A program made the position numbers and the translations under genes. Under the pieces are notes generated by a model, which worked only from the letters and a program-made list of their open reading frames with translations, did no database searches and was not told where the DNA came from. A stretch of 64,000 nucleotides of DNA from Laetmonice hystrix. Lineage: Eukaryota. Positions 15,028 to 57,451 of the stretch are shown here, piece by piece (positions within the stretch are counted from its first letter, which is position 1; each line of letters opens with the position of its first letter). The stretch covers positions 23,314,001 through 23,378,000 of the forward strand of contig OZ249436.1 of NCBI GenBank assembly GCA_965235115.1, read 5' to 3'.

Positions 15028-17885
15028 TTATAAGATCTGGTCAATGGCTCTTTTGAACGATTTTGGGCACGGAATGTGCTGAATATCAGCATGTAGCTTG
15101 TCCCATTCTTTCAAACCTCGTTGCATGGGACTTCTCAAAAAAAAGGCAGTGTGGGCTCGCCGCCGTTCAAAGCGCAGTTTACGATCACCTCTGGTTCTCT
15201 GTCTATTATTAACTATGGCTTTGCCTGCTATTGCTCTTTTATGCATTATCCGGAGTAGTTGCCTTTTCCTGCGGGTAGTTAAGAGATCTATTCCGGTTAG
15301 TGCATGTAGTTCGGCTATGGAATATTGTCTCAAGTTAGCCCGTAGGCAGAGGCGTAATCCTCGATTTTGGAGTTTTTGTAAGCGGTCATACTCAACGCGA
15401 TTTGCGCTTTCGTGCATGAATCCACAATAATCAAAAATTGGCAGTATTGTTTGTCTGTAGATTGCTAAACATACCTCGTTTGTTAGGGATTTCCGGAGTT
15501 TACCCAGCTTAAAAATACGGTTACTTGTCTGCTTGACTACTTTGTTAATGTTTTGTTTGAGTGTTAGTTGTCCGTCTAGTTCAACACCTAGATAGCAGTA
15601 GGTTGTAGTATGAGGTAACAGTGTATCACCCATGGTAATATTGAGATCATTCAAATTCCCGATCTTATTTAAAGCCCCAAACCACATGACCATTGTTTTC
15701 TTCCTGTTAATGGTTAGACCATTAGTAATTGACCAGCGGTACAGTCGGTCAACATCTACCTGCAGTCGGGCCTCAGCAATAGCCGCTGAGTTGGCACTAA
15801 CATACAACATGATGTCATCAGCAAACATAAAACATTTACAGTATATGAATTGCTGAGTGACATCATTAATAAATAGGATAAATAAGAGCGGTCCGAGTGT
15901 TGAGCCTTGTGGAACCCCAAATTTGACATCAGTGACCGGTGACTTGATGTTATTAGCCAGAGTACATTGCTTCCGACCACTGAGATAGCTAGTCACCCAA
16001 TTCATAATGTTGGTGGGGATACCAAGTTCCGATACCTTTCGCAATAACAACGGGACCGAGACGCTATCGAATGCTTTTTGAATGTCTATAAAAGCTGCAG
16101 CTGTTACCAGACCCTGATCCCTTGCAGTATAGAGGTCATTTGTGACATCAAGTACAGCGTCACTTGTGCTAAGTCCACTGCGAAAACCAAACTGGCAGGG
16201 TGATAGAAATTCCTTTTCCTCTAGTATTGCAGTTAAATAACGATGTACGACCTTTTCTAGTAACTTGCCTGGTAATGGTAGTAGAGTTATGGGACGCCAG
16301 TTAGAAACCATTCTCAGGTTACCTTTCTTGGGAATAGGAATTACCTTGCCCACACACCAAGCACTTGGGAATATTCCAGAGTCTAAGGAGTTAATGAAAA
16401 TTGTCACAAGTCTACGGGTTAGTAGCTGAAAGGCATCCTTTAGCACTCTGGCGTTAACACCGTCCACGCCCGATGATGTGTGTACGTCGATGTCACTAAT
16501 TTACGTATAATCTGTTCGTTTACAAGCTCGGCACCACTGAGTTTAGGACCCGACAGAGAACCATCATAGTGACCCAACCACATATCGGGTTCCACTTCAG
16601 TTAGTTTCCGGAATAAGCTTTCCCCAATACCTGCAAAGTATTCATTAATGTAAGTGGCCGTTTCCGCGTGTGGAACATCGGAACCAGTGTTTTCATTTAT
16701 CAGGGAGATTACTGCGGTTGCTTTACCAGGGTCAAGTATTTTGTTTACCTCCCTCCAGAATTTCTTGGGTTCGGGCCGTGCCTCTTCTAGCTTGTTCTTG
16801 ACCCAGTCTGCCTTGGCATTACGCAACATTCTTTGTATGGTTCGCCTGAGGCCTTTGGCTATGGTCCACTCTGACTGGTCACCAGTGTTTTGGTAGAGTT
16901 TGATATGATCTTTCCTATCGGCTATCGCTTCACGTATGTCATTTGTTATCCACTCTTCTGTGTGTTTCTTAACCCTGCGTGGTTGGTAGGGACAACTATA
17001 ATCAAGGTAGTTCTGGATATTGTTTATCATGTTAGTCCACTGTAGTTCAGGGTTTGCAGTGCTATCAAAGGCCGACCAATCAGAGTGGATGAGGTAGTCC
17101 CACAGATCATATGTATTGTAATTTCTATAAGACCTACCATAAAAAGACTCGTACTCTCTTCTAGTTCTGGTTTTCTTTTTGATCGCAAAGACAGGGATGT
17201 GGTCACTAATGAGGTGGTCAATAGTACCACATGCGGAAACGACTTCACAGTTAGTTAGGATATTATCTATACATGTGCCACTTCCAGCTGCTAATCTCGT
17301 CGATTGGGTAATTAAATGTTTGAGGCCTGTCTGGCGACAGAATTCAAACATCTTTTTAGGGTTTGGGGAATTGCGCTTTTTAACATCGATGTTGTAATCA
17401 CCTACGAACCATAGCTCTCTATTTTTACAGGACTCATGTTCAAGTATATATGTTAGGTGATCAAAGAAAGCAGCTACATTGCCTGCTGGTGGTCTGTAAA
17501 TAGTTACAATCATTAACTTTTTATGGTTTGGCTGGTCTACCAGGATGCATAGTGTTTCAATATCGCTGTTGCTGAGGCATAGTTCATTGACCCGACTGCT
17601 GAAATGGGTTATTTTATCCTTAAGATAACAGGCGACACCTCCTCCCCTACCACGCTCCCTATCATTTCGGTAAATTGTTCGTCCTCTCCAATACAACAGA
17701 CTATCATCGTAATTATTATTTAACCAAGTTTCGGAGATACACACAACATCGTACCCATCTAGTTGTACCTGAACATCATGCAACTTCGGAAAAAGACTCC
17801 TGGTATTTAACCCACAGATCTTAAATCCCCTTGCAATCTCCTTTAAGTCATCCTGCTGGGTAAGCAGGTACTGAAATGTGGCCAG
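15028..17885 (-). pseudogene. LINE-B ORF2 (APE endonuclease + RT) with one frameshift near 16495
   Basis: Frame is open from a CTG at 17885: GFKICGLNTRSL, CISETWL, GGGVACY, IYRPP, GDYNID, SDHIP. After the frameshift: DIDVHTSSGVDG, WRPITLL, QFGFR, GVPQGSTLGP, FADD, YLGV. Confidence 0.92.
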
Positions 17886-18490
17886 TTACCCATGTTGATG
17901 GTTCAAGTGATATACAATGAAAGAAATAAAGTGTTTTAAACGATTCCCTCATTGAGACTATTGTCTGAACAGGGGAGAGAAGGGTGAGGCGAGGATTAGT
18001 CTCAACTTGCCGCACTGATCTGTTGAGTGCATAAATATATAATTAAACAGAACTACAGATTCATATATATACAAGTTAGGGCTCCTCTGCCCTATACGAA
18101 GGACTTCACATACTGGTAACAAGTTACAGATTCAAGCTGAGTGCATTAGAAAGGGCCAAGAAGGCCAAGATAATAGCACCACAATAATCACTGCATTGTG
18201 ATTGTTGTGTTATACAACACGGTATACGCATATAGTACACAAGTATAGGACTTAGCATGCCATCCAAGTGTGGATACATTTTACAATTCACTTTAAAGAT
18301 GCATTCGCATATCAAGGATATCCTAAGATGTAGTTTTACACATTCCGGAATTCATTTTAGATCTTCCTATCACGGTTGTGAGTTAAGCGAATGTGCAGCA
18401 GTAAACGTAGTATGGTAACAGTAGTCGTATACGCAGTATGGTGCTAGATTCGAATGTTACAATAATATTGCTTCAATACTTCCATTTAAT

Positions 18491-20263
18491 TTAATTAGTA
18501 ACACGCAAACGTTGACGGATATCAACCAAAAGTTTACCGAGTTCATTACGACCGGTGTACACCCCCTGTGTCAGGTGTTCACTTGCATAGTTCTCGCCTG
18601 CTCCCCAGAAGGGGTCCCGGGTCGATTCGACTAGTGGTTCAGGATAAGTGCTTAATAGTTCGTTACGTAGGCGGTCATGCTGCAGGTATTTGCACATATT
18701 GATTTCCATCATTACTCTAAGGCGAGCGTTATACCAGGGATGGTCATCGGGGAGGACAACTAGTTTCCCGATCCCTAGTATTTTGTAGGGATTTTGTTCA
18801 CTTAGTACCTCTTTGGCCCGTTCGTATTGCCCACAGAAAATACATTTAGCGTACTGATATGCCATTTCATTGCAGCTAAAGTTCATAGCATCCAGTGTAG
18901 TACCATCTTCCTTAGCAGGGGCGTATGATATGGTGGCTTCGTACATATTACTGAGGGGTGCATTGGGTCCGTTAAAGATTAGCCCCGAAGCAGTTTTACG
19001 GACTCGCTGAGTTGCGGTACTTGGCCGGTCACGATGATCGGTTGCTGCAGCATCATTTTGGCGTCCAGTGCCCTGGTCCTTGTCGGCTCCTGTACCGGTG
19101 TCCGTGTTTTCCTGTTGGAGATCACGGGCATTTATGTCTAGGCGTAACGACATAGGCATGATGTCATCCGGGAGCTGTGAACTTTGACTGATTTCGTACA
19201 GTTTGCCATTAATTGTTATTCCTTCAGCATGAAGAGAAACCTTCGCCCCCTGACGTCTGTGGTATCTGGCAATCTGCCTGTATTTCCAGCGGGTTCTCCT
19301 TATCTCTGGAGGTTCGTCATAATTAAACCACACGTGTTGGCCCTCATTTGCAAGATTTTTCAGTTTCGCCTTTATCCGCATTACCTTTTCTAAGGCAGTC
19401 TTATTGCTAAAGCATACGATGATTTTGGGAGGTCGTCCGGGGTCAAGTTTGGCGTCTTTGCTGATGAGTCTCGATATTCTTAACACGTCAGGCTCATTGA
19501 GAGTTACTCCGAGTTGTGCTATCAGCTGCCAGAATTGTTTTTTGACATCTTCATTTGTAGTCATTTTGAGGCCACTTATGATTAGATTTCGGCCTCGGTC
19601 TTCATGCGCATAAAGAAGCCCGGCACTGTCCTTCCCTTTAAGGGCACAAGCATAAGTCTTAGTACTATTGAGCTCTTCTTTAATTGAGTATTGCGCTCTA
19701 GTCAGTTCATCTATTTGCTTCTGTTGGGAGGCTAGTTTTTTATTGAGCAATTTATTCACCTCATTACTTTCGTTTTGGTAGTTCTTATTATCAGCCTTCA
19801 CTTTCTCGATTTCCGATGAAACATGTGTATACATCTGTGTAAACTTAGCATCTAACTCGTGCTGCATGGCTAAAATATCTTCCTTTTTCGCCATAGTTGA
19901 AAGTTGGTTGTTCATATTTGCAAGTAGTGCAGAAATGTTACCCAGCTCTATGTTTGTCGCAGGAGTGCAGGCGCTTGTAACAGAGTCACTATTGCTGGGC
20001 ATATGTTCGGTCACACCTGGGTGATCATGTGTAATAGGTAAGGGTGTCTTTTCGGGCTCCCCACCTGTGCTCAACTCGTTGTGTGATACTTCATTATCAG
20101 ACATATTTTCACGGATTTCACTTTCAGTATGAGTATTTACATGGTCTTTTACACGTTTTGATTGGTTTCCCACACTGTTCGGTGATAGTTGGCCGGATCG
20201 CGACCGTTTTTTCCTTCCCCTAGGTTTGGTTTGCTTACCGGGGCCTACTTGCTGTTGACTCAT
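18491..20263 (-). CDS. LINE-B ORF1p: basic N-terminus, coiled coil, L1-type RRM/CTD and C-terminal NADAR (YbiA/DUF1768-like) domain
   Basis: Intact 590 aa. RNLIISGL...RPPKIIVCF...VWFNYD...ITINGKLY is ORF1 RRM/CTD-like. The C-terminus FNGPNAPLSNMY, NEMAYQYAK, KYLQHDRLRNELLST, LVESTRDPFWG, GRNELGKLLVDIRQRL is the NADAR signature. Confidence 0.88.
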   Translation of the reverse strand: MSQQQVGPGKQTKPRGRKKRSRSGQLSPNSVGNQSKRVKDHVNTHTESEIRENMSDNEVSHNELSTGGEPEKTPLPITHDHPGVTEHMPSNSDSVTSACTPATNIELGNISALLANMNNQLSTMAKKEDILAMQHELDAKFTQMYTHVSSEIEKVKADNKNYQNESNEVNKLLNKKLASQQKQIDELTRAQYSIKEELNSTKTYACALKGKDSAGLLYAHEDRGRNLIISGLKMTTNEDVKKQFWQLIAQLGVTLNEPDVLRISRLISKDAKLDPGRPPKIIVCFSNKTALEKVMRIKAKLKNLANEGQHVWFNYDEPPEIRRTRWKYRQIARYHRRQGAKVSLHAEGITINGKLYEISQSSQLPDDIMPMSLRLDINARDLQQENTDTGTGADKDQGTGRQNDAAATDHRDRPSTATQRVRKTASGLIFNGPNAPLSNMYEATISYAPAKEDGTTLDAMNFSCNEMAYQYAKCIFCGQYERAKEVLSEQNPYKILGIGKLVVLPDDHPWYNARLRVMMEINMCKYLQHDRLRNELLSTYPEPLVESTRDPFWGAGENYASEHLTQGVYTGRNELGKLLVDIRQRLRVTN

Positions 20264-21891
20264 GTCATGTAGCTTGTTTCTACAGCGTTGGTAGAGTTGA
20301 TGGCGTCAGGTACATATATCCGTTGATCAGAGTCCAGTAGGGTGCCACATCTGGTATTTGGTCACTTATATCACATCAGCACATATTGGGTATAGATCCG
20401 TGTTATTGGCGCATTGTGATTCCCCCTAGATTCCACGTAAAAAAGAAACTTTCAGGAGCCCTAAAACGCCGCGTCTCAAACGGCCGCCATCTTGATATTT
20501 TTTGAGGGTACTTGCTGAGGGTACACAAAAGAGGTTACTTAAACAGATACGTAAATGTATTTTGTTGGATGTTATCTTAGTAGGTGAAATTCTCTGTTTG
20601 TTCAAATACAGGGCAGCGCCGGCGACGACTGGGTGTGCGTATTTCCGACCTCTAGATCTATACTATAGACTAACGTTAGTATGGATCCGGAACGGACAAC
20701 ATAAGTAGGTTGCGCTACGTGTTCAAGCAGACACTGACGGCACAGAGTGAAGCAACCCGTTTCGGGTACTAGTCCTGAGCGATCTAATTTTTATCAGTTC
20801 CCGGTCACTCGGTGCGCCTGCCGATGCATTTGAGCGATGGACGCATTATTTACGGGAGGTGTTAAGAGTTGCGACAGTGACAATGCCGGGCTTGCTGAGA
20901 TTCTACTCGACAGGTGCGATTTTAATTAGACGTTTGGTCACTTGAGCCAGCCGCGAAATCGGCCGGGGCTTGTAGGATCGCCGGTAGATAGGCATACAAT
21001 CAAAGTCGTTACCGATGCCATCTTGTCTGAATGTGTCAACAAGCAGGTGCGCGTCACGTGACACCATGGAATTCCCCTGTCCGTTCCCCGTCCCAGTTCA
21101 AATGGCGTCTCAATGCGCAAGAACGGATTAACAGTGCACGGCTGACGAATTCATGTTAATATGTCCAGATTAGCGTTCCTTTCTCAGCTAAAAGGCAGCT
21201 TCGTCCTAGGATAGCGTTCTGCTTGATGTTTACAGCGTTTGGGGGAAATATAGGAAAATTGTCAACATTGGATGTATTGTAATTGGTTTAAGACTTTCGC
21301 ATGTACCACCCGCTCTTTCCTTCACCGAGGCCTTTGTATGTGCTAATGCGGAATTGTTTGCACTGGGATTTATGATCAGTAGATCCAGGCGATATAGGTA
21401 TGCCATACTTTTAAGATACACCCTCAATGCATGACCCCCCCCCCCCCCCCCCAACCCACACACATCCACATATTTTCTACAGGGACCTATATTATGACAA
21501 TTTTCTCTATTCGAACTGGCTACTTCTTGTCCTTGGCTTCCGGCGCTACTTTAAAGTAAGCCCAGCTTCAAAGCTCGAATCTCTTCTTAGCGTAGGGCAA
21601 GTTACAAAGAAATATTACACTAACTAACCTACACTAACCTTTATACGCGTTTCAACTCACCCATATTGGAGAGAAAAGGCAATAATGTTGAAAATAAATA
21701 TAAGCTGCTGCCACATGTAGCTTCAGATGTCACACCTCGGTAACATGAGACAAGGACACCGCCAACATGTCCACGAGCGGCAGGTGTGACACATGTGACG
21801 TACAAGTACAAGACTGATACGGTATAACATTCACCAAGTGTCTCCACAAGAATGACCGCAAAAAAATATGGAACAACCACCTACTGTTTAA

Positions 21892-44392: not shown

Positions 44393-45456
44393 AGGCCCGG
44401 CCACACAGAGCCGACTACACCCAACCCGATGGTCGGAGGCCCGGGGGTCCAAATCGGCCAACTACTCAGTCAGTCTGGTATATGCCCAATCATGCCACAC
44501 TGAATGCGATCCGAAAGTCGGGAGTGGGATGCCACACTAGCGACAGCACTCGTGACCAGTATATACTATTGTAACTATTCATTCCCCTAGCGGTAGTTCC
44601 CACTCCGCCATGTTGTTTGTGTTGTCCCGCTCGCAGGGTATCTTGGGAGTAGCGTTTGTATGGTGCGCGCTGTGATTGGCTGGTAAGCAGCCCGACTGTT
44701 GAGTCTGGTCGGTAGGTATGCCACACAGGCCCGACTAGGCCCGACCAGACCAAACCGTTTGGTCGCTCATCTTGTGCAGGACAAGATGAACGACCGGACT
44801 GGTCAGTCGGTGAAAAACACCCGACTACGGCCGACTGACCGTGCCAGACAGCGCCGACTACCCCCGACTCGACTCCCCCAGACCAGCGGGTCGGGGGTAG
44901 TCGGCTCTGTGTGGCCGGGCCTCTAAGGCCCGGCCACACAGAGCCGACTACCCCCAACCCGATGGTCGGAGGCCCGGGGGGTCCAAATCGGCCAACGACT
45001 CAGTCAGTCTGATATATGCCCAACCATGCCACACTGAATGCGATCCGAAAGTCGGGAGTGGGATGCCACACTAGCGACACCACTCGTGACCAGTATATAC
45101 TATTGTAACTATTCATTCCCCTAGCGGTAGTTCCCACTCCGCCATGTTGTTTGTGTTGCCCCGCTCGCAGGGTATCTTGGGAGTAGCGTTTGTATGGTGC
45201 GCGCTGTGATTGGCTGGTAAGCAGCCCGACTGTTGAGTCTGGTCGGTAGGTGTGCCACACAGGCCCGACTAGGCCCGACCAGACCAAACCGTTTGGTCGC
45301 TCATCTTGTGCAGGACAAGATGAACGACCGGACTGGTCAGTCGGTGAAAAACACCCGACTACGGCCGAATGACCATGCCAGACAGGGCCGACTACCCCCG
45401 ACTCGACTCCCCAAGACCATCGGGTCGGGGGTAGTCGGCTCTGTGTGGCCGGGCCT
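44393..45456. mobile_element. Two head-to-tail copies of a ~530-bp PIF/Harbinger-like MITE (44393-44922, 44926-45456)
   Basis: TIR AGGCCCGGCCACACAGAGCCGACTAC; flanks TTA / CTA / TTA. Confidence 0.88.
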
Positions 45457-45861: not shown

Positions 45862-46555
45862 TGAAGTTGGGTGGACCCCCAAACTGATCAACAACACAAG
45901 TCCAGATTTGGAGTAACGACTTCTTTGTTCACAATAGTGCGTCGTCTTGGTGAGTGTGGCCTGGAGAGCTTTCTGTAGCGTTCGCTCTGGATCCCCGTTC
46001 CCGTCTATATCTTCCTAGCTAAGCCCCGTCCCTTTATACTGCTTGCCTATCCTCCCGGGTTTTATAGCGATCTATTTTTAGCGCTGAGCCAGCATCACAT
46101 GCCGCTGCGTCAGCCCCCGGGTTTTCCCCAGAATGCTGACTCATCAGTCACAAGACTCCCAGCTCATACTCTTAACTATTGATACCTATTTTTAGGTTTT
46201 CTGGTTCTAACCGGTTTTGACTGGTTCTGACCGGTTCTAACCGGTTTTGGCTGGTCTCGTGATGCTGACTCATCCGGTCACAGGACGCCAATATCCTGGA
46301 GTTGTTTACACCACTCTGCACTAACATCCGGGAGTTATTTATACTACTTATCTTAACATCCGGGAGTTGTTTACATTGTTCCACCACTGTGGTGCTGACA
46401 TCAGCATCCTGTTATCTACATCCTTCATCTGAACCATTACTGGAATTTCTATACATTCGTATATATATATCTATGTTTTTGCACACTTCAAGACTAACTA
46501 CTTTTAATATATATTCTTCTTATTATTTTACTATTCTAAACACGACCTTGTTACA
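45862..46555 (-). repeat. 3' LTR
   Basis: TG...CA bounded (TGAAGTTGG...TGTTACA); near-identical to 56762-57451. Confidence 0.92.
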
Positions 46556-46571
46556 TACCTTCCCCCCTTTT
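46556..46571 (-). promoter_or_regulatory. Polypurine tract
   Basis: Minus strand AAAAGGGGGGAAGGTA immediately before the 3' LTR TG. Confidence 0.85.
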
Positions 46572-46919
46572 AAAAAGAAGCTCCTTTCTTTTTTTATCTT
46601 ATAACTTTCTTTACAAGGTCGTGTACCCCAGTTATGTACATATATACATGGGCTCATGTCCACTACAATGTGGGTTTCTTTATATATACGCCCATCTTCG
46701 TTTTATCTACCACCTTGTGGTTTACATATATATTTGCTTATATATTATATTATTTGCTTATATATTTTCGATATACATCTCCCCTAGTGTTATAATTTTA
46801 CCCCTACCTTATCCTATATTTGGTTATTATATATAGTTCGAGTTATTCATTATTTTCCCCCCTAACTAACCTTCTTCCTATATATATACCCCTTAACAAC
46901 TAAGGCCACACTCACCGCG

Positions 46920-47562
46920 TTACAATGATGTTGGCATGCAATTCTTAATTCTACTACAGTCTTCTTCGACGTCCATTTCAGTTTCGTACAATAATCTTCG
47001 TGGTCTCCCTTCCCGGTGGACACCGTCCTCCCGCTCGCATAACATTGGCATCATTGTTCGTGCTGTCCCTCACTCTCCTCATCAGAGATCGCAATCACGT
47101 CCATATCGCTCCCTTCACTGGAGATCGTTATTATTGTTCCGTTACTTATTGTCTCCCACCGGTCCCCCCCGATCTCGACCCCCCCACATGGGCTCGGCCA
47201 TGGGGTCGAACCCGGGTCCGAACATCTCACCGGCCCATCGTCTCGCCCGATCTTCCATGGCTCCCGCTTCCTCCATCGTTCGGTCGACCCATTGTCGCGT
47301 TCGTGCCACCATATCCTCATTTTCAATTTCATTCAGTAGGTCCCTCGTCAGCTCATCCTCAGTTGACGAGGGGGATGCTGGGGGTGGCGGCCTCTGGGGC
47401 GCCACCCGTGCCACGTTACTTTTTTCGCCGTTCTCAAACGTCACTTGTTGGCCCTCCACTGTACGCGTATGCGTAGGCCCCCTCTGGTTGGTCAGGCGGC
47501 GGATCAGGTCTCCTAATGGCTCGGGGACTCCTGGGCCCTTGGATTGTTGGTTCAAGGCCATC
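46920..47562 (-). pseudogene. Accessory ORFx: acidic/proline-rich, probably frameshifted, unknown function
   Basis: MALNQQSKG...PPPPASPSSTEDEL... (to 47142), with further acidic segments in other frames (IITISSEGSDMDVIAISDEESE; ETEMDVEED). Confidence 0.45.
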
Positions 47563-48027
47563 TTGGTTTCGTTTGGTAGGCGGTAGGTCTTCAACTGTTA
47601 ATATTGTCGGGTCAGAAATTCTTTCCAGAATGAGTTGTGCAACCCGGCGCCCCGTCTTTATATGGAATGTCCTGGATCCTGAATTTGATATCAACATGCC
47701 GACGTTTCCTCGGTAGTCCGGGTCAATCACTCCCGCTTTTACATCTAGTTCATGACGTAGGGCTAGCCCTGATCGTGATGCTACCCTTCCGTATGTACCC
47801 GGAGGCAGGGCCAGTGCAATGTCAGTCCTCACTAGCACCCTCCTTAACGGATGTATGATGTATTCGTAGGCGCTATACAGGTCCAGGCCTGCCGCTTGTT
47901 CCGAGGCCCGGGTTGGCACGATCGCTTTTGGTGACAGCAACTTTACTTTCAGTACTTCATTGTTGGCTGACGGCGGGGTCTTCGGCACTTCACTTTTGTT
48001 CGGTAACCAGAACCTTGGGTCGCACAT
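47434..48027 (-). CDS. dut: dUTPase (trimeric type) of the LTR element
   Basis: AAGLDL, RSGLA, GVIDPDYRG, RVAQLI (motifs 1-4). Motif 5 is degenerate (RNQDGLEPT). Confidence 0.88.
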   Translation of the reverse strand: MCDPRFWLPNKSEVPKTPPSANNEVLKVKLLSPKAIVPTRASEQAAGLDLYSAYEYIIHPLRRVLVRTDIALALPPGTYGRVASRSGLALRHELDVKAGVIDPDYRGNVGMLISNSGSRTFHIKTGRRVAQLILERISDPTILTVEDLPPTKRNQDGLEPTIQGPRSPRAIRRPDPPPDQPEGAYAYAYSGGPTSDV

Positions 48028-49895
48028 CTTCTGTTAAAGATAACTCCACAGTAGGTTGATCACTTTTTGTCTTAGCCTTTTTCCCATACTTTCGTCTCGC
48101 ATAACTTCCCAGGATCAGGATACCCACAATAGCGATAATTACAACCAGCACCAGGGCCGTCAGGGGAATGGTTGGCTTTGTATTGATCCCTCCCCAGTAT
48201 TTACGCTCATTTCCTTTCAGCATCTCTTTTATATTGTGAATTGGTAGCTCCCCTATATCCTGAAGAGGAGTGCCAGCTTCTTAAATTTAGGGTATTCATT
48301 TTCCGACGCCGAATAATTCCAAATGCCCGGCATTCTGCGTCTGGCTACCATTTGTGCATCTAAAAACGTGCGTAGCTCTCTGTCTGATTTTTCCTTAAAA
48401 TAAGGAGGGAACGACAGGTATTCTGACAATCCCACGCACCCTGCTTTAATTTTGATTTCTGTGATCGGCGGGCTAACCGTCACCTCACGTTTGTGCCTGC
48501 CTTCAAGGTTATAGCAGGATTCAACAATTTTAAACGTTTTGTTCGAGGCCACCGCCCACATCCCCTGCACAATATATCTAGCAGTGGGTGCTGACTGAGC
48601 GGCTCTCAGAATTTTCTTACAATTTTGGGCGACGGCCTGCTGATTACTCTGATACAGCGCCATCACACACGATGGTACACTGGCCAGCGCCATTGCTGGT
48701 TTTCCAATCGTGCAATAATTTATCTCTTTCTGGTCGCACTGGGTACTTTCGAAAGGGGAAACATAAATAAAGTGAGCCTTATCCCGTGCAACCCCTATCA
48801 TTTCTGTTTCTAAAGCGTATGTTGCTTCTAGAGGCATGTCCCCTTTTATAACCGGCAAACTTATTATTTTCATTAGTTGGAACTCGTCTTCTGGTCTGAC
48901 TAGCGGGAAGGTAGTGATTATATGGAACTTTCCTCGCCCCGGTATCAATAACGTTGGCAGATGCCTGTAATACCAATTTAAGTCGTTGGTACTGTCGGGG
49001 GCAAGTGGAAGTGTAAGAGAATCAGGAGCCTGTTTCTGAATATCTTTTAGTAGGTCACCCAGGATGGTGGTGTTTATCAATACGGGAGGCAGGCGACCCC
49101 GGACACACTCTGTGACTTGTTCCTGTAATAATATCAGGGTGGAGTCCAACTCGCCTGGCTCAATGCGAGCGTTTGCAAGATTCCCTGATAGTTTGTCGCC
49201 CACCTTAATATAGCAACTTCCGTCCTTACCCCAGTTCTCAATATTGTCGTTAAAGCGTCGAGCTGACTCCCGAGGCTTGTAACGGCCCCCTGCAGTGTTT
49301 TTACCGCATTTCTATTTTTCTTTACTTCCACATGGGTTACATTTATTAGCGTCAAGCTTTGATCAATCGCGTGTACTATGCTTTGTTGATTTGCCCCTAG
49401 CCTCCTTATTTGCTGTCTCAATTTATTCAGGTCTTTCTCGGTCGCCGTGCCAAAGAGGGAGGACATAACTTCCCCTAATATTGGGAGTATAGACCTCTTT
49501 CCCCTGTGCCCTCTTTCTTTTTCATTTACTATATCCAAAATCCCTCTAAGTCGTTTGGTCAATAATTCCTGTCTCAGTACCATATCCCTTAGCTGCCTCT
49601 CTGCTACTTCGTCATGTCCGGCCCGTATTTTGTCAATTCTTTTCTTTGTCATCGCCGTTGCGTTAACTGTGGCTACCTCGGCCATAAATATCCTATTCTT
49701 TCTCCCTATTTCAGTTAAACTCCTATCGAGACTAGCTATTTGCTCCCTCCAGGGGGTGGTGTTTATCATAATGGTCACCACCCAACTTGAGTATGTATTA
49801 TACATTTTGTTTCGGGGGACAAAATACACCCCCGTCTGGCCCTGTGCCATAGTTGCAATCACACTAATGAGGGCTACTATCGTGGCCAACGCCAT
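47990..49895 (-). pseudogene. env: Envelope glycoprotein, class I fusion (baculovirus F / errantivirus Env-like), two frameshifts (~49150, ~48255)
   Basis: Signal peptide MALATIVALISVIATMAQG; furin site RGKR followed by fusion peptide SILPILGEVMSSLFGTAT; heptad repeat; Cys-rich region; TM LTALVLVVIIAIVGILILG plus basic tail. Confidence 0.87.
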
Positions 49896-49935
49896 CCTCA
49901 GGGTTTTTCGCCCTGCAAAAACAATAAAATATAAC

Positions 49936-52900
49936 TTTACTGGAAACGCTTCGTTAGCCACTTCGCGTAGCCTTCCAATTGGCTAGATTTATCTTTCATC
50001 CTAAATTCGTCTCGAACAGACATTAATAGGACTCCCAGCATATTTCTACCGGTCACTTGGCCCTTCTCATAGGCGGGGTCCCCAAACTTACTCCCCCAGC
50101 CCAGAACGTATCTCGGGTTGCTTCTATCAATTTATGGGGGTAAGTATCTATCAACACTTGGCGTTCCCATGGGTTTTGGCTGAATTTTAGATGCAATATC
50201 ATCTTTTTTATGCCCACCCGTTTTTGAAACCATTCTAGGGTTGGTCGCACTGTGCCGCCCAATTTCTTTGCTGCTGCCGCGTCATAGGCTTCGGCCACAG
50301 CCCGCGCTAGCTCTGGCTGGCTGCACTCATCACATTTTATGTATTGGTATAAGTGTTCGCTCGTGGGGAATGACCGCCCGTCAAATTGGATGGCGTTCTC
50401 GTTCTGGTGGAAGTTACTTAATACCGAATTCTCTCCGCAGAACGTTATTCCTGCCCTTGTCACCTTTTGTTTCACCGGCTCATCCGGCTGAACCGTTCTA
50501 TTATGGAGTATAGGCCCTTTTTCTATGCGTGCCTCCTCCCGATAGGCAGGTAGCATCCCTTCTCCTTCCCACCTTCCTAGAAGGCATTCTATGCTCATGG
50601 GAGGGTCCTCTTCTTTGAACCTTTTGTTTGAGTTTCCTGGCTCTATGTCTTCCCCTTTTCTCTTTCCTAAGTCAACCCTTGCAGGGTCATGACCTAGTTC
50701 CCCTGTCCTACTTTTCTTTGGATCTACGTCTCCTCTTCCAGGCCTAACCCTTTTTCCTAAGCTAGTTTCCCTGGGATACCTATTGGCGCCCCCACTAGCT
50801 CCTGGGAGAGGTAGATCACTGGGTCGCCCTTCATCATTTTTGGGCCTGCCCCTCTTCTCCCGTGTGCCCGTGTTTTGTTCCACAGGCTGTCTGACCCTTT
50901 TTCGGAGGTTATATCTGGGCTCATTATTAACTTCAGCCGGCCCGGGCAGGTGGGGTGGTCCCACCTCATCGTCAGTGTCCGGTAGCGGGGTGTCCTGCGC
51001 CGTCAATTCGGGCTCAGGGGCCCCTGGGACTTCTCCCCCTCTATCAGGTTCCCTTGGCGGGGCCACCGCCTCCGGTTCGACCAGCCTAGCTGACCTCACC
51101 GGTCGTTCCCGCCCCCCATCATCTAGGTCGAGGGGCATCCCCTTCGCTCGAGTTTTATGGAGAACGTGTCTGGGCCTGTCCCGATCAGCATCCCAGCACG
51201 CTTCTGGGTGTGCTAACCGCAAGTTTTCTACATGTACCACTTTTGTTTTTCCTGTTAACTGACTCTTTATCCTGTATGTTACAGGTCCCAGCTTGTCTAA
51301 CACCCGGTAGTAGGGTTGCCATTTCTCCATCAGTTTTGCCGATTCCTCCCGGTTTATCCGCTTGATTAGATAGTACACTGGGTCTCCTATGTCGAGCTCT
51401 TTTGCCCTGGCCTTTCCTTTGAGTCTTTCTTTGTTCCGCTCCCTACTTTCTTCCATGTTCCGTTTCGTACTTACAAAGGCTTGGTGTAGCCGTTGAAGCG
51501 TTGTGGGAACGTATTCATCCCCCATGTATTTCATCTTTGGCCTCAACAGGGTATCCATGGGGAGGACGGGGTCCCTCCCGTACACCATAAAGAAAGGGGT
51601 GTGTTTCGTGGTCTCATTTACTGCGGTCCTATATGCCAGCAGTGCCCCCGACACTGCCTGATCCCATTCCAGTCCCGGCGTTTTTGCCAGTATGTCATTC
51701 AATACCCTATGGAACCTTTCCGTTTTACCATTACTCTGCGGGTGGTACGGGGTGGCATTACAAAATTCTGTTCCCTGATCTGAAATGATCAATCGGGGAC
51801 ACGAGTGTCGTGGGATGAATTTTGCCAATAGTAGCTTAGCCACTGTTTGAGCGGACTTATCTGGGGTCGGGTAAGCCTCCGGCCACCCCGACAGGTGGTC
51901 CACAATTGTCACTATGTATTTATTGCCATGCTCCGTTTCCACAAACGGCCCGCACGTATCTATTCCCACTATCTCAAATGGGTACTGCGGGATTGGCATG
52001 TCCTGCATTTCAGCTGTATGTTTCCGCATGTTTCTCTGGCTACAGGGCACGCACTTTCGTACATATCCTACCACCGCTTTATACATGCCGGGAAAATAGT
52101 ACCTCGGGCGTAGGGTGTTATAGGTTTTATCTATCCCTAGGTGTCCTAGCTTGTCATGATAGGAATCTAGTAGATTTAGGATCATTCGGGCCGGAACGGC
52201 CAATTGCATATAATGTTCCGGGTCATACTTGGTTGGCGGAACTATGTGGTACAGTAGTCCCTCGTCCATGACAAAATTATCTAGCCCTGTCGTCTCATCT
52301 CCCCCTTCCATCCGCTCTATTATCTCCTTCCACTCATCATCTTGTCTCTGGAGGTGCGCCATCTTATCTCGATTTGTTTTTAGTTCTTCGTAAGCTTTAA
52401 GGATTGGTGTCTCTTGGGGTCCGTCTTCCCCTTCCTTTTCCACACTGTCCACCTGGTTTTCAGGTGTCAGGCTGTCTGTATCAATCATTGTGACCTCATG
52501 TTCTTTGACCACCGGGCGACCCGTTTTTCTTATCCTGGAGAGCATGTCGGCCCGAACGTTATTCTTTCCGGATCTAAATTGGATGTCGCACCCATACTCG
52601 TTTATTAATATGGCCCATCTTTGTATCTTCGTGTTTTTCAGAGGTGAACAGGGACTTCAACGGCTTATGGTCTGTGTAGACTATAAAAGGTGCCCCCAGA
52701 AGGTAGTGTCTCAAATGAGTTATGCAATATACTATTGCATACGCCTCCCTTTCGATACACGGCCATTTTTGTTGACACTTGGTCAACTGGTGCGAGATGT
52801 ATTGCACAACCCTGTCTCCGTCCTCATATGCCTGAGTCAGCACCCCACCCACTGCATATAGACTAGCATCCGTATATAATTTGTACGGCCTGGTGGGGTC

Positions 52901-54630
52901 CGTGTAGGTCAAGATGGGCACAGAGGTCAGTTTTCCTTTCAATGTGTCGAACGCTTCCTGAGCCCTTGCATCCCACTGAAATCGGGCGTTTTTCTTTGTT
53001 AGGCTCGTAAGGGGCTTGGCTATGTTCGCGTAGTCGGCAATAAACTTTCTATAGTATCCAGCTGCCCCTAAGAATGACCTGACCTCCTTAACTGTGGTGG
53101 GTGGTGCCAATTGCTTAATGGCTGCCACGTTCTCATCGTTGGGCCTCACCCCATCCCTCGAGATGATGTGACCCAAATACTTTATCTCTGATTTCAAGAA
53201 ATCACATTTCTTCAACTTCAATTTCAGTCCCGCCTGATCTATTCTTCTAAGCATCTCTTTCTGATGTTCCATGTGTCCCTCAAACGTCTCCGAGAACATG
53301 AGTATATCATCAATGATGGCAATCATTGATGGCATACAAAAGCCGTCTTGTTTTTGTCCTCCTCCTTGACCTCCACTTGCCAATATCCGCTTTTGAAGTC
53401 CAAAGAACTGAAATACTTGGACCTCCCTAGTGTGTCAAAAATGTCCTCGATTCTCGGTAGTGGGTATGAGTTTTTTACTGTGACATTGTTCAGTTTCCGG
53501 TAATCGACACAAAACCTCAGGGTCCCGTCCTTCTTGGGTACTATTACCACCGGGCTTGACCATGGGCCAAATGAGGGTCTGATCACCTGTGCTTTCAACA
53601 TCTCATCCACATGCTCTTCTATGACATGTTTCCTAGTGAGGGGTACTCGGTACGGCGCCTGCCGAATGGGAGCACTGTCCCCCGTGTCTATCTGTGCTTT
53701 GACTAATCTAGTGTGTCCCAGGTCAGAGTCAGACCTCGCGAACAAGTGACTATAATTTCTTATCACTCGTGCCAAGGCTTCCTTTTCCTCTGGTGACACG
53801 TGTCCTAACACCCTATCTAGTTCTTCTGCCTCAATCCCTCCACCGCGTTTTTGTTTTCTTCCCCATTGCTGATCCCTACTCAATTCCTCGGCCGCTCCCA
53901 GACATATGCCCCCTGGGACATATATCGGACTTCTCGTTGTGTTTATCAGTCCTATTTCGGTATAGCCCCTCTTTATCCCGGCTATCGTATCTGGCATCTG
54001 AACCGCTGGATGCCTCTCAAAGAAACTACACTTCCTGATCGGCTGTACTAGGCATCCAGACCGTGTTATTCCTCTACCTCCCACCTGCCGGCACCTCACT
54101 CTCAATAAGGTGTGAGGTGGTATCACTTGGCCTTTCATTGTCCTAATTACCTTATTCCTATATCCAGCCCCTTTAGTTTTCAATGCTACTGTCTCCTCTC
54201 CTATTATCAGCATCCTAGTGTCATAATCTATTTTCGATTTCATTTTCGCCAGTGCGTCACTACCCAAAATTCCTGGCCTAGACAATCCCTTGATAACTCG
54301 GAATGGAATTGAATGTCTGGTTCTTCCTATCCTTATTTTCATTGCGTAGGTTCCCAAAATATTTAATTGATGGCCGCTTGCCCCAACTGTCGGAGGCGTC
54401 CTCACATTCAACTTACTCATAAATCTCGCAGGTATTATCTTAAATGTAGCTAAGTCTATTGCTGAAATATCAGCTCCTGAATCTACCAACACATCCATAT
54501 GTACATTTCCCATTAGTACTGTGCACATGGGGCATTCCGACCCCCTCGAATAATCCCCCATCTTTTCTTCTGGATTATTCCTTATTCCCAAAACTATGGC
54601 CCTACTAGTCCCGGGAGCTCCTAGTTTCCC
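49936..54630 (-). pseudogene. pol: pol: protease, RT, RNase H, integrase, disordered linker and C-terminal NADAR domain (disrupted)
   Basis: LVDSGA; RFCVDYRKLN, LDFKSGYWQ, IIDDILM (deletion upstream); YTDAS, EREAYA, TDHKPL; HDKLGH..CVPC, IDTCGP, ISDQG, ERFHR; then SVLSNFH, TSEHLYQYIK, KFSQN, IEATRDTFW and, after a frameshift at ~50053, GRNMLGVLLMSVRDEF. Confidence 0.92.
54585..54630 (-). promoter_or_regulatory. -1 ribosomal frameshift signal (G GGA AAC + hairpin)
   Basis: CAG GGA AAC TAG at the gag end. The -1 frame GKLGAPGTSRAIVLGIRNNPE joins pol. Stem TCCCGGGACTA/TAGTTTTGGGA lies 7 nt downstream. Confidence 0.8.
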
Positions 54631-56651
54631 TGCGTGGGTCGGTCTTGTCTAAATCCCTGAGACCCACTTCTGTTATCAGCTCGCCCGCCCCCTACTTGGG
54701 CTGCGTCCCTTCTTGTAAAGCAATCTCGGGCATAGTGTCCCAGTCTGCCGCACTGTCTGCAAATAGGCCTGCCATCTGGCAGCCACCGGTTCACCGATCT
54801 ATTCTGGTTTCCCCCGCTTGTCCACCCTCTCTGCATGCCCCGACCCGACCTGACTATTGGTGGATTGTTTCCGTTTCTAAGGAGGTCTAGGACTAGTTCA
54901 TGTGGGCACTGAGCCACCTCTGGCTCTTCTCTCGTCTCTGTGTCCCGGCTCATTGCCTGCACCATTCCCGATACTGCGTCTGCCAACCTTTCGACCTTGG
55001 CATCAATCATTGCCATCTTAAATTCTATCCCCCCTGAATTACCTTTCTCCTGACTTTCCTCACTCCCTTCTATTTCGTCCACTTCCATAGGCTCTTCATG
55101 CCTTTCTACCCTATGCGGGCGTCTTATCTCAAACTGCCTACTCGTGGCATATTCTTCCCTTGCCAACCGGACTGCTCCGTCAAAGGTCTGGGGCCCTTCC
55201 ATAATTAGGCGGCGGGCCACAGTGTCGCTACGAATGCCATCTATAAAGGTTTCGGCCAGCTCTCTTTGTACCATAACATTTGTTCACTCAGCTTGCGTAT
55301 AGGCTTCCTCTGCCTGTTCTCGCACTCGTTCCGCATAGGACGAGATTGATTCACTCTCGGCCTGTTTTACTTTCTTGAGCTTTTGTCTTGCCACTTGTTT
55401 TTCTGCGGCATCTGCGAAACGTTCCCTAATTAGCTCTCTCAATTCAGGCCATGTCAATGCGGGGTTGTCTTTGCACTGCCGCATAGCAAAGTCGGGATTA
55501 TTCTGGATTATTCCTCATTCCCAAAACTATGGCCCTACTAGTCCCGGGAGCTCCTAGTTTCCCTACGTGGGTCGGTCTTGTCTAAATCCCTGAGACCCAC
55601 TTCTGTTATCAGCTCGCCCGCCCCCTACTTGGGCTGCGTCCCTTCTTGTAAAGCAATCTCGGGCATAGTGTCCCAGTCTGCCGCACTGTCTGCAAATAGG
55701 CCTGCCATCTGGCAGCCACCGGTTCACCGATCTATTCTGGTTTCCCCCGCTTGTCCACCCTCTCTGCATGCCCCGACCCGACCTGACTATTGGTGGATTG
55801 TTTCCGTTTCTAAGGAGGTCTAGGACTAGTTCATGTGGGCACTGAGCCACCTCTGGCTCTTCTCTCGTCTCTGTGTCCCGGCTCATTGCCTGCACCATTC
55901 CCAGTACTGCGTCTGCCAACCTTTCGACCTTGGCATCAATCATTGCCATCTTAAATTCTATCCCCCCTGAATTACCTTTCTCCTGACTTTCCTCACTCCC
56001 TTCTATTTCATCCACTTCCATAGGCTCTTCATGCCTTTCTACCCTATGCGGGCGTCTTATCTCAAACTGCCTACTCGTGGCATATTCTTCCCTTGCCAAC
56101 CGGACTGCTCCGTCAAAGGTCTGGGGCCCTTCCTTAATTAGGCGGCGGGCCACAGTGTCGCTACGAATGCCATCTATAAAGGTTTCGGCCAGCTCTCTTT
56201 GTACCATAACATTTGTTCACTCAGCTTGCGTATAGGCTTCCTCTGCCTGTTCTCGCACTCGTTCCGCATAGGACGAGATTGATTCGCTCTCGGCCTGTTT
56301 TACTTTCTTGAGCTTTTGTCTTGCCACTTGTTTTTCTGCGGCATCTGCGAAACGTTCCCTAATTAGCTCTCTCAATTCAGGCCATGTCAATGCGGGGTTG
56401 TCTTTGCACTGCCGCGTAGCAAAGTCGGCCGCCGTTCCTCTGAGCGTTCTCATGGCCATATATTTTAGTTGTATGTCATCATCTACTACCGGTTCTAGTT
56501 GCCTCATGTCCTTCAGCCAACCTTGAAACATTTTATAGTTCTCCCCGTTGGCTGGCCTAATCTGTGCCTTTTCCCCTTGAATCCTCATTTCCCTTGCCAA
56601 CTTTTCAAACCCCTGAGAGAAAACGTCTGCTGGGACCGCCATTGTGACCAC
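54621..56651 (-). pseudogene. gag: gag with a 933-bp tandem duplication and an in-frame TGA
   Basis: TWPELRELIRERF, KQAESESISSYAER, FIDGI, EPMEVD, CRQCGRLGHYARDC knuckle. The 3' part is present twice. Confidence 0.9.
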
Positions 56652-56742
56652 CGCTCACCCTTTTCCGTCGTCAAGACTCTCCTCCTTTCTAGGCTTTTGA
56701 CAATCTGATCTCAACCTACTCACCTTCCTCTGTCGTCTCCAA

Positions 56743-56760
56743 ATCCTGGTCACGGCACCA
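56743..56760 (-). promoter_or_regulatory. Primer binding site, tRNA-His-like
   Basis: TGGTGCCGTGACCAGGAT 1 nt after the 5' LTR; closely matches the complement of the metazoan tRNA-His 3' end as I recall it (TGGTGCCGTGACTCGGAT). Confidence 0.8.
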
Positions 56761-56761
56761 A

Positions 56762-57451
56762 TGTAGTTGGGTGGACCCCCAAACTGATCAACAACACAAG
56801 TCCAGATTTGGAGTAACGACTTCTTTGTTCACAATAGTGCGTCGTCTTGGTGAGTGTGGCCTGGAGAGCTTTCTGTAGCGTTCGCTCTGGATCCCCGTTC
56901 CCGTCTATCTCTTCCTAGCTAAGCCCCGTCCCTTTATACTGCTTGCCTATCCTCCCGGGATCTATTTTTAGCGCTGAGCCAGCATCACATGCCGCTGAGT
57001 CAGCCCCCGGGTTTCCCCCAGAATGCTGACTCATCAGTCACAAGACTCCCAGCTCATACTCTTAACTATTGATACCTATTTTTAGGTTTTCTGGTTCTAA
57101 CCGGTTCTAACCGGTTTTGACTGGTTCTGACCGGTTCTAACCGGTTTTGGCTGGTCTCGTGATGCTGACTCATCCGGTCACAGGACGCCAATATCCTGGA
57201 GTTGTTTACACCACTCTGCACTAACATCCGGGAGTTGTTTATACTACTTATCTTAACATCCGGGAGTTGTTTACATTGTTCCACCACTGTGGTGCTGACA
57301 TCAGCATCCTGTTATCTACATCCTTCATCTGAACCATTACTGGAGTTTCTATACATTCGTATATATAATTATATCTATGTTTTTGCATACTTCAAGACTA
57401 ACTACTTTTAATATATATTCTTCTTATTATTTACTATTCTAAACACGACCT
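56762..57451 (-). repeat. 5' LTR (outer few bp missing)
   Basis: Matches 45862-46548 but lacks the terminal TGTTACA. TATAAA on minus near 56933-56938. Confidence 0.9.

What the first reader, a model, noticed from the sequence alone, without database searches (positions are those of the whole stretch)
49936..51200. Integrase C-terminal extension: long Pro/basic linker then NADAR in place of a chromodomain
After the GPY/F-like region (WQPYYRV...VHVENLR) Pol continues ~230 aa of disordered sequence with NLS-like repeats (RYNLRKR, KRGRPK, LGKRVR, LGKRKG), then NADAR. The last NADAR motif (GRNMLGVLLMSVRDEF) lies in another frame right after the TGA at 50053-50055, so the ancestral domain was complete. 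This position usually holds targeting modules, so the domain could erase ADP-ribose on cDNA or read ADP-ribosylated chromatin for site selection (inference).
Basis: partly seen in the sequence, partly recalled or inferred. Interest (0 to 1): 0.8.

Follow-up and report, generated by a model that had tools for sequence, protein, structure and literature searches.

The report
Retrovirus-like element with integrase–NADAR fusion
A decayed retrovirus-like jumping gene in a marine invertebrate carries, fused to the tail of its integrase, an enzyme domain that in other organisms strips ADP-ribose off DNA and RNA bases, which hints that it once used it to undo a host chemical mark on its own genetic material.

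Summary
On the minus strand lies an 11.6-kb LTR element (45862-57451): gag, PR-RT-RH-IN, a 255-aa disordered basic/Pro-rich tail, a YbiA-type NADAR domain, an F-type env and a separate dUTPase ORF. NADAR is in frame with integrase (Pfam 4e-16). One frame break follows 'WAGG' near 50092, and the last helix lies in the next frame. A sister copy has the domain uninterrupted (Pfam 1e-25). It folds at pLDDT 95.6 onto solved NADAR/YbiA structures, and the catalytic residues are kept. All 3 copies that retain this region show IN-tail-NADAR-env colinear. Two further copies lost the region by larger deletions.

Three related families share the first ~140 aa of the tail or the same IN-to-env plan but lack NADAR. 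This family alone has about 0.7 kb extra there. So NADAR was added to an existing tail. It did not replace a chromodomain.

Its nearest relatives are NADAR domains at the end of LINE ORF1 proteins, which fill this genome.

Function is inferred: most likely removal of ADP-ribose from element RNA/cDNA as a counter-defence. A targeting or reader role is not supported. NADAR in retrotransposons is already in print (2025), but not at this position.

The parts
56762..57451 (-). 5' LTR of the element (element runs on the minus strand)
   Evidence: Aligns with 45862-46548 at 669 of 676 ungapped positions, with 25 gap columns. A tRNA-primer-binding-like stretch lies just inside it (read output). No target-site duplication was recognised.
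54621..56216 (-). gag, duplicated in tandem (two near-identical ORFs, 54621-55283 and 55563-56216) with a CCHC knuckle
   Evidence: ORFs. zf-CCHC at 2.3e-5. Direct repeat with 933-nt spacing and 99% identity.
52657..54648 (-). Protease, reverse transcriptase and RNase H, split over two frames in this copy
   Evidence: RVP, RVT_1, RT_RNaseH and RT_RNaseH_2. ORFs 53323-54648 and 52574-53434.
51217..52656 (-). Integrase: zinc-binding H2C2, core (rve) and the C-terminal SH3/GPY-F-like domain ending VHVENLR
   Evidence: Integrase_H2C2 5.5e-18, rve 3.5e-9, Integrase_p58_C 6.8e-9.
50452..51216 (-). 255-aa disordered Pro/Gly/acidic/basic tail with NLS-like clusters, in frame with integrase
   Evidence: Composition and motifs. 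AF2 pLDDT 36-61. Its first ~140 aa align with the tail of a NADAR-less sister family (score 192). dN/dS against other copies is 0.15-0.44.
50092..50451 (-). NADAR domain, first three quarters, with all catalytic positions (E in SEH, K at +7, E in LIEAT, D and W in RDTFW)
   Evidence: PF08719 4e-16. Alignment to YbiA 2b3w and NADAR 8bau. AF2 pLDDT 92-98.
50086..50097 (-). Frame break inside NADAR, in a short homopolymer run whose length differs among the three copies
   Evidence: One run's contig also differs in length at 50092.
49937..50089 (-). Last NADAR helix (GRNMLGVLLMSVRDEF), a ~20-aa C-terminal tail and the Pol stop, in the adjacent frame
   Evidence: PF08719 profile 130-163 at 9e-5. 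Continuous with the first part in the contig-4 copy.
47990..49895 (-). env, baculovirus-F type, with signal peptide, furin-like RGKR site and transmembrane segment. It is broken into three frames in this copy.
   Evidence: Baculo_F 1.3e-8 and 2e-3. It is one 508-aa frame in the contig-10 copy.
47434..48033 (-). dUTPase as a separate ORF overlapping the end of env
   Evidence: dUTPase PF00692 4.4e-35. The same overlap is seen in the contig-10 and contig-4 copies.
45862..46548 (-). 3' LTR, preceded inside the element by a polypurine tract

Best explanation
This is a defective copy of an env-bearing Ty3/gypsy (errantivirus-like) provirus. Its Pol polyprotein ends integrase, then a 255-aa disordered NLS-rich tail, then a YbiA-type NADAR domain.

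Shown: the fusion is real, in frame and shared by the family. The domain is a complete NADAR fold with the catalytic residues of the active enzymes. It was added, as about 0.7 kb, to a pre-existing integrase tail in this one family. Its nearest relatives are NADAR domains at the C-terminus of LINE ORF1 proteins.

Inferred: the domain came from a LINE ORF1 transcript. It is made as part of Gag-Pol and so travels in the particle and pre-integration complex next to integrase. There it cuts ADP-ribose off guanine or cytosine bases of the element's RNA or cDNA that host ADP-ribosyltransferases have marked. That is a counter-defence in the manner of viral macrodomains and phage NADARs. The dUTPase ORF in the same element fits a theme of keeping the cDNA clean.
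For: Fusion: there is one 867-aa frame from RNase H through IN and tail into NADAR. Pfam NADAR is 4e-16 here and 1e-25 in the uninterrupted contig-4 copy. IN-tail-NADAR-env is colinear in 3 of 3 copies that keep the region.

Fold: AF2 gives pLDDT 95.6. Foldseek matches 8bau (P. nicotianae NADAR with ADP-ribose) at E 3e-9, TM 0.74, and YbiA 2b3w at TM 0.69; only these 2 hits reach E <= 0.001.

Catalytic residues: the equivalents of E43, E125, D130 and W133 of 8bau, and the E/K pair (E88/K95 of E. coli C7 NADAR), are all present (mapped to passages of PMC11543638 read).

Selection: against the contig-19 copy, NADAR shows 10 synonymous changes in 98 sites and 7 non-synonymous in 385 (Fisher p 4e-4). 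This is similar to IN.

Gain: sister families A (IN 72-73% identical) and B (71%) have pol and env but no NADAR. The distance from IN-match end to env-match start is 2065 nt here. It is 1394 in A, 1336 in B and 1293-1389 in a 45%-identity outgroup.

Source: in a 179-row FastTree tree, the two LTR NADAR rows sit in a 13-row set (support 98). Of the other 11 members, 5 carry an ORF1-like region upstream; the remaining 6 are short proteins.

Enzymology in print: all four NADAR families remove G-ADPr from DNA and RNA, and YbiA-type ones also remove C-ADPr (PMC12945103, passages). NADARs embedded in RNA-virus polyproteins, including annelid/bivalve picornaviruses, were proposed to counter host ADP-ribosyltransferases (PMC9503650, passages).
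Against: No activity, substrate or expression was shown.

Against the contig-4 copy, NADAR has 3 synonymous and 10 non-synonymous changes (dN/dS about 0.9, p 0.74). The selection signal therefore rests on one comparison with small counts.

The NADAR-bearing family is small and wholly defective: 3 copies with the region, 2 deletion derivatives and a fragment. The NADAR-less sister families have about 20 matches with long uninterrupted pol frames. NADAR is therefore not needed for success in this genome.

No host enzyme that would write the mark was identified. The one family search I tried was blank, and so was its control.

The tree is FastTree on a 164-column domain. The library rows carry no names. 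Four of the five ORF1-like clade members helped to build the ORF1 profile.

Whether protease cuts NADAR off is unknown.
Confidence: 0.5

Rival explanations
1. Neutral passenger. A LINE ORF1 3' end was captured by chance into the pol tail of one short-lived lineage and never mattered to the element.
For: The family has few copies and all are broken. NADAR-less sisters are far more numerous. The window-versus-contig-4 comparison of NADAR is near neutral, with 3 synonymous and 10 non-synonymous changes. One derivative lost NADAR by deletion.
Against: The insertion is in frame. It keeps every catalytic position in all three copies up to their private breaks. It shows a synonymous excess against contig 19 (p 4e-4). 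The deletion in the contig-10 copy also removes the env start, so that copy is a wreck and not a working NADAR-less form.
Confidence: 0.2
2. The domain is an active enzyme but acts on small molecules or RNA ends rather than on modified bases. Candidate substrates are ADP-ribose-derived immune signals, by-products of RNA repair or splicing, and NAD-capped RNA.
For: Such roles were proposed for viral NADARs (PMC9503650, passages). The Ectocarpus paper suggests RNA processing of the transposition intermediate (PMC12477816, passages). Fusion to the RNA-binding ORF1 in LINEs fits an RNA-linked role.
Against: The same review argues that NADARs embedded in animal RNA-virus polyproteins target macromolecular ADP-ribosylation. 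The only activities shown so far for YbiA-type NADARs on nucleic acids are base de-ADP-ribosylation.
Confidence: 0.15
3. Reader or targeting module. The domain binds ADP-ribosylated chromatin or DNA and steers integration, as chromodomains do in chromoviruses.
For: It sits behind integrase. Some errantiviruses of molluscs, annelids and cnidarians carry a chromodomain at that position (PMC13524379, passages).
Against: The catalytic residues are intact, which a pure reader does not need. The closest relatives of the domain are on LINE ORF1, not on an integrase. This clade has no chromodomain to replace. No insertion-site test is possible with about 5 copies.
Confidence: 0.08

Closest known systems
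NADAR domains of retrotransposons reported in PMC12477816 (2025): one Ectocarpus Gypsy lineage, and ORF1 of Tx1 LINEs of Crassostrea gigas
   Same: A YbiA-family NADAR is built into a retrotransposon protein. LINE ORF1-NADAR fusions are also abundant in this genome and include the nearest relatives of this domain.
   Different: [quoted passage not shown] Here it is the last domain of Pol, behind integrase, in a metazoan env-bearing element, and it groups with LINE ORF1 domains. I read passages only. The paper's supplementary figures and tables were not seen.
Env-carrying Ty3/gypsy 'errantiviruses' of metazoans (PMC13524379, 2026)
   Same: LTRs, gag, pol and an F-type env (Baculo_F) in a lophotrochozoan-type host. 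Some members carry an extra module behind integrase.
   Different: The extra module described there is a chromodomain. The main text has 0 occurrences of 'NADAR' or 'dUTPase'. Its supplementary element lists were not read.
YbiA-type NADAR hydrolases: E. coli YbiA (2b3w) and Phytophthora nicotianae NADAR (8bau)
   Same: The fold (TM 0.69-0.74) and the catalytic positions.
   Different: Those are free-standing proteins. This one is the tail of a polyprotein and has about 20 extra C-terminal residues that extend the last helix. Sequence identity is 24-26%.
Macrodomains and NADARs in polyproteins of positive-strand RNA viruses (PMC9503650)
   Same: An ADP-ribose-removing domain is embedded in the replicase polyprotein of a selfish element of animals. 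This is the model for the proposed counter-defence role.
   Different: Those are RNA viruses. The paper has 0 occurrences of 'retrotranspos' or 'retroelement'.

Membership tests
NADAR superfamily, YbiA family (Pfam PF08719) | Profile match above the curated cut-off over the whole domain | tested here: met
   60.1 bits (cut-off 35.1) for profile 9-134 in the window frame, plus 130-163 in the next frame. 91.3 bits for profile 9-163 in the uninterrupted contig-4 copy.
NADAR superfamily, YbiA family (Pfam PF08719) | YbiA fold (five core helices flanked by small sheets) | tested here: met
   AF2 pLDDT 95.6. Foldseek top hits are 8bau (TM 0.74) and 2b3w (TM 0.69), and nothing else reaches E <= 0.001.
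NADAR superfamily, YbiA family (Pfam PF08719) | Glutamate in the last strand (E125 of P. nicotianae NADAR), which marks the YbiA family, plus the conserved E/K pair, D130 and W133 | tested here: met
   LIEAT, SEHLYQYIK and RDTFW align to those positions. Residue roles come from PMC11543638 and PMC11125620 (passages). The 2-residue numbering offset of the chain is my inference.
NADAR superfamily, YbiA family (Pfam PF08719) | Hydrolysis of base-linked ADP-ribose | not testable with these tools
   Needs an enzyme assay.
Ty3/gypsy (Metaviridae) LTR retroelement, env-bearing (errantivirus-like) | LTRs, gag with CCHC, pol in the order PR-RT-RH-IN, and env downstream of pol | tested here: met
Ty3/gypsy (Metaviridae) LTR retroelement, env-bearing (errantivirus-like) | Target-site duplication flanking the LTRs | tested here: inconclusive
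   The flanks read show no matching 4-6 nt. The outer end of the 5' LTR may be cut short.
Chromoviruses (chromodomain behind integrase) | Chromodomain at the C-terminus of integrase | tested here: not met
   No chromodomain family at E <= 0.01 in the 867-aa ORF or in the linker. None is listed in the precomputed Pfam domains of the 51 closest Pol relatives.
Ectocarpus-type NADAR Gypsy lineage (PMC12477816) | [quoted passage not shown] | tested here: not met
   Here NADAR is the last domain of Pol. Its position in Ectocarpus is taken from the paper's text.

The most novel reading that the evidence does not exclude
ADP-ribosylation of nucleobases in retroelement RNA or cDNA is a working host defence in marine invertebrates. 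Selfish elements of unrelated classes have each armed themselves with NADAR to erase the mark: LINEs through ORF1, this env-bearing LTR element through the integrase tail, and picorna-like RNA viruses through their polyprotein. In this case the domain passed from one class of retrotransposon (LINE ORF1) to another (LTR Pol). CARP-1-type or PARP-type transferases would be the writers.
Probability: 0.3. Interest if true: 0.85.

Novelty: new variant of a known kind. Interest (0 to 1): 0.6.

Why it matters
NADAR enzymes were only recently shown to reverse ADP-ribosylation of guanine and cytosine in DNA and RNA, mostly in bacterial toxin-antitoxin and phage settings. Here a catalytically intact NADAR is welded to the integrase of a retrovirus-like element. 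The same genome holds hundreds of LINE ORF1-NADAR fusions. Together these point to nucleic-acid ADP-ribosylation as a live conflict between animal genomes and their retroelements. They also supply a short natural domain with which to test that idea. The case further shows an accessory enzyme apparently moving between two classes of retrotransposon, and an integrase tail that accepts new modules other than chromatin readers.

Tried and rejected
1. Word-indexed protein searches with the NADAR part found nothing at E <= 0.001. Proteins of 476-1518 aa gave 464 candidates. Proteins of 315-2000 aa, queried with the uninterrupted copy, gave 688 candidates. This is weak evidence, because the index needs shared 5-mers.

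2. A search of the IN C-half plus tail plus NADAR found 51 Pol relatives. All match the IN part only (at most 52% of the query), and none carries PF08719.

3. In the exhaustive representative search, the best non-repeat hit was 40% identical. None of the 150 listed proteins has IN, RT or RH by phmmer. Pfam on 39 of the 150 showed no rve or RVT. Only the top 150 of 6045 hits could be examined.

4. The metagenome contig scan gave 85 pattern matches and no relative.

5. The ESM Atlas gave no usable hit.

6. Sequencing runs: no RNA holder was listed. The 3 runs come from one sample and are kept as contigs. Laying them showed a one-letter length difference at the break in one contig, and contig ends near the break in the other two. 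Because several copies collapse in these contigs, this cannot tell whether the break in the window copy is real or an assembly slip.

7. An own-genome search for the Enterotoxin_a family (PF01375), as a stand-in for DNA-targeting ADP-ribosyltransferases, gave no match, and the control genomes gave none either, so it is uninformative. No query for CARP-1 or pierisin-type enzymes was available from the tools.

8. I tested the idea that NADAR was spliced in just before a conserved Pol C-terminal helix (LEGYAKWLTKRFQ here, against ...IRQWLKNKL and ...AYVWIKKHIK in the sisters). The local alignment score was 23 against a shuffle mean of 24.7. It is suggestive by eye but not supported.

9. A clean NADAR-less copy of the same family as an 'empty site': the contig-10 copy lacks NADAR, but through a 1171-nt deletion that also removes the env start. 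The contig-5 copy has lost all of pol.
Full report
WHAT IS THERE

The window region 45862-57451 is one LTR retroelement on the minus strand. Its LTRs (45862-46548 and 56762-57451) agree at 669 of 676 ungapped positions, so the insertion is fairly young.

Reading downstream on the minus strand, the element holds:
- gag with a CCHC knuckle, carrying a 933-nt tandem duplication;
- protease, reverse transcriptase, RNase H and integrase;
- a long tail;
- a NADAR domain;
- an env of the baculovirus-F type;
- a separate dUTPase ORF that overlaps the end of env.

This copy is dead. Pol is in three frames, env is in three frames, and NADAR has one break.

THE OBSERVATION

ORF 50053-52656(-) is 867 aa without a stop. 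It carries the integrase domains and then PF08719 NADAR at residues 742-857 (E 4e-16, profile 9-134 of 163).

The frame ends at the TGA at 50053-50055. The adjacent frame (49937-50131) matches the rest of the profile, positions 130-163. The break lies right after 'WAGG', near 50092, in a short homopolymer run whose length differs among the three copies.

The tail between VHVENLR and the first NADAR strand is 255 aa. It is rich in P, G, D/E and K/R, and only 19% hydrophobic against 35% in the integrase core. It holds three bipartite-NLS-like patterns. AlphaFold2 gives it pLDDT 36-61 with no secondary structure, and gives the NADAR part 92-98. The alignment is shallow over the tail, so low confidence there is only soft evidence of disorder.

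IS IT A REAL NADAR?

The contig-4 copy has the whole domain in one natural frame of 179 aa, with Pfam at 1e-25 over profile 9-163.

Folded with 43 homologues, it reaches pLDDT 95.6. Foldseek finds only two solved structures at E <= 0.001: P. nicotianae NADAR with ADP-ribose (8bau, TM 0.74) and E. coli YbiA (2b3w, TM 0.69).

The sequence alignment to these two puts:
- E of SEH and K seven residues later on the conserved E/K pair;
- E of LIEAT on the last-strand glutamate that defines the YbiA family;
- D and W of RDTFW on D130 and W133.

The residue roles come from passages of PMC11543638 and PMC11125620. All of these positions lie upstream of the break in the window copy.

IS IT PART OF POL IN THE FAMILY?

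The window's genome is 627 Mb in 35 contigs. Earlier notes of this scan call the organism a probable annelid. The closest named Pol relatives found here are gastropod proteins.

In this genome the family has the following copies:
- the window copy;
- copies on contigs 19 and 4, which keep IN, tail, NADAR and env colinear at 92-98% DNA identity;
- a contig-10 copy with a 1171-nt deletion (window 50691 to 49520) that removes the end of the tail, NADAR and the env start;
- a contig-5 copy in which gag is joined to env;
- a fragment on contig 1.

So 3 of the 3 copies that keep the region show the fusion.

GAINED OR ANCESTRAL?

Sister family A (integrase 72-73% identical, about 15 matches) and family B (71%) include copies with long uninterrupted pol frames and a 665-aa F-type env.

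Their Pol ends with a homologous tail. The first ~140 aa align with the window's tail, including PRYNLR(K/R)R and a KR cluster (score 192). There is no NADAR in them (Pfam) and no dUTPase.

The distance from the end of the integrase match to the start of the env match is:
- 2065 nt in the window family;
- 1394 nt in family A;
- 1336 nt in family B;
- 1293-1389 nt in a 45%-identity outgroup family (coordinates).

About 0.7 kb is therefore extra in this family alone, and a gain is the most economical reading.

None of the 51 closest Pol relatives in the public protein collection lists NADAR or a chromodomain. 'In place of a chromodomain' is therefore wrong for this clade. The tail was there first and NADAR was added to it.

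WHERE DID IT COME FROM?

The genome is full of NADAR. Of 532 candidates, 150 were scored, and 145 of those rows are 27-41% identical domains in frames of 79-629 aa.

The 15 loci I opened (L006-L020) are LINE elements. In 14 of them an ORF1 with a coiled coil and an RRM-like part ends in NADAR. In the fifteenth, the NADAR frame lies beside an endonuclease ORF. One such LINE lies in the window itself at 15028-20305(-), with ORF1-NADAR, endonuclease and RT. Their catalytic motifs are also kept (read).

In the exhaustive search of 1.84 billion representatives, the best single-domain hit is only 40% identical. None of the 150 listed proteins has IN, RT or RH, and 64 of the 150 have an ORF1-like region upstream of NADAR.

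In a FastTree tree of 179 domain rows, the two LTR rows fall in a 13-row set with support 98. They are apart from the 8 own-genome LINE rows sampled. Of the other 11 members of that set, 5 carry an ORF1-like upstream region and 6 are short proteins. Four of those 5 also helped to build the ORF1 profile.

The most likely source is therefore a LINE ORF1 of another subgroup. This is an inference from a short domain and unnamed library rows.

SELECTION

LTR divergence within the window copy is about 1%, while the copies differ from each other by 2-8%. Much of the difference between copies therefore arose while the lineages were still active.

Results for NADAR (161-168 codons):
- against contig 19: 10 synonymous changes in 98 sites and 7 non-synonymous in 385 (dN/dS about 0.17, Fisher p 4e-4);
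- against contig 4: 3 in 107 and 10 in 397 (about 0.9, p 0.74).

For comparison, integrase gives 0.19-0.36 and the tail 0.15-0.44. Constraint on NADAR is thus seen in one of two comparisons, and the counts are small.

HOW IT MOST LIKELY WORKS

What is shown is an intact-looking hydrolase domain made as the last part of Gag-Pol, tethered to integrase by a flexible, NLS-like tail.

What is known about the family comes from two papers. NADARs of all four families remove ADP-ribose from guanine in DNA and RNA, and YbiA-type ones also remove it from cytosine (PMC12945103, passages). NADARs embedded in polyproteins of animal RNA viruses, including annelid and bivalve picornaviruses, were proposed to undo host ADP-ribosylation (PMC9503650, passages). 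CARP-1-type guanine-specific DNA transferases are reported mainly in bivalves, but also in other animals.

My inference is that the domain rides in the particle and pre-integration complex, clears base-linked ADP-ribose from the element's RNA or cDNA, and so protects reverse transcription and integration. The dUTPase ORF in the same element, which the sisters also lack, fits a theme of guarding cDNA.

Against a necessary role, this family is small and dead while its NADAR-less sisters flourish. That leaves real room for the passenger reading. A low genomic copy number would also fit a more virus-like way of life.

WHAT IS KNOWN IN PRINT

- 'NADAR' with 'retrotransposon' returned 140 papers, nearly all matching an author's name.
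- 'NADAR domain' with 'transposable' returned 1 paper.
- 'NADAR' with 'integrase' returned 37, of which only the same paper is relevant among the 15 listed.
- 'DUF1768' with 'retrotransposon' returned 0.

The relevant paper is PMC12477816 (passages). [quoted passage not shown] Supplements of these papers were not read and may list such elements.

Earlier notes of this scan record LINE ORF1-NADAR fusions on other DNA (e1-7275890, e1-7350017, e1-7350018). None records an integrase-NADAR fusion.

VERDICT

It is a new architecture of a recently described kind (retrotransposon-borne NADAR), with an inferred counter-defence role that a simple enzyme assay can test.

Noticed in passing
window 15028-20305 (-): A LINE element whose 604-aa ORF1 (18491-20305) ends in a NADAR domain (PF08719, 4.6e-28). 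It is followed by endonuclease (16440-17885) and reverse transcriptase (15028-16500) frames.
   Followed up: partly
whole genome (G000): At least 150 NADAR matches were scored out of 532 candidates. All 15 non-family loci opened are LINE-associated, and 14 of them show ORF1 ending in NADAR, from several diverged families. This is a very large expansion of ORF1-NADAR fusions.
   Followed up: partly
window 47434-48033 (-): dUTPase (PF00692, 4.4e-35) is encoded as a separate ORF overlapping the last ~40 nt of env. The same arrangement is seen in the contig-10 and contig-4 copies. Sister families instead have an unrelated Pro-rich ORF there. A dUTPase gene downstream of env is an unusual position for a retroelement.
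   Followed up: partly
window 47142-47597 (-): A 151-aa ORF overlaps the end of the dUTPase ORF and has no Pfam match. It may correspond to the Pro-rich post-env ORF of the sister families.
   Followed up: no
window 54565-55797: A 933-nt tandem duplication (99% identical) inside gag gives two near-identical gag ORFs.
   Followed up: no
window 44440-45273: A 534-nt tandem repeat (98% identical) lies just outside the element's 3' LTR.
   Followed up: no
L024, L036/L037, L042, L043, L046 (own genome, contigs 8, 11, 18): Related env-bearing and env-less Ty3/gypsy families have long uninterrupted pol (about 1400 aa) and env (665 aa) frames. In the one copy measured, the LTRs differ at 1 of 704 positions. 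These families look recently active.
   Followed up: partly
P0001 (library protein, named Haliotis rufescens uncharacterized protein): The top hit of the NADAR search is a 4240-aa abalone protein with at least 7 tandem NADAR domains, several of them identical. It appears to be a host gene built of NADAR repeats.
   Followed up: no
window 50092, runs X1-X3: Contigs of one public run differ in length by one letter exactly at the NADAR frame break, and contigs of the other two runs end near it. The site is a variable homopolymer, and several copies collapse in these contigs.
   Followed up: partly
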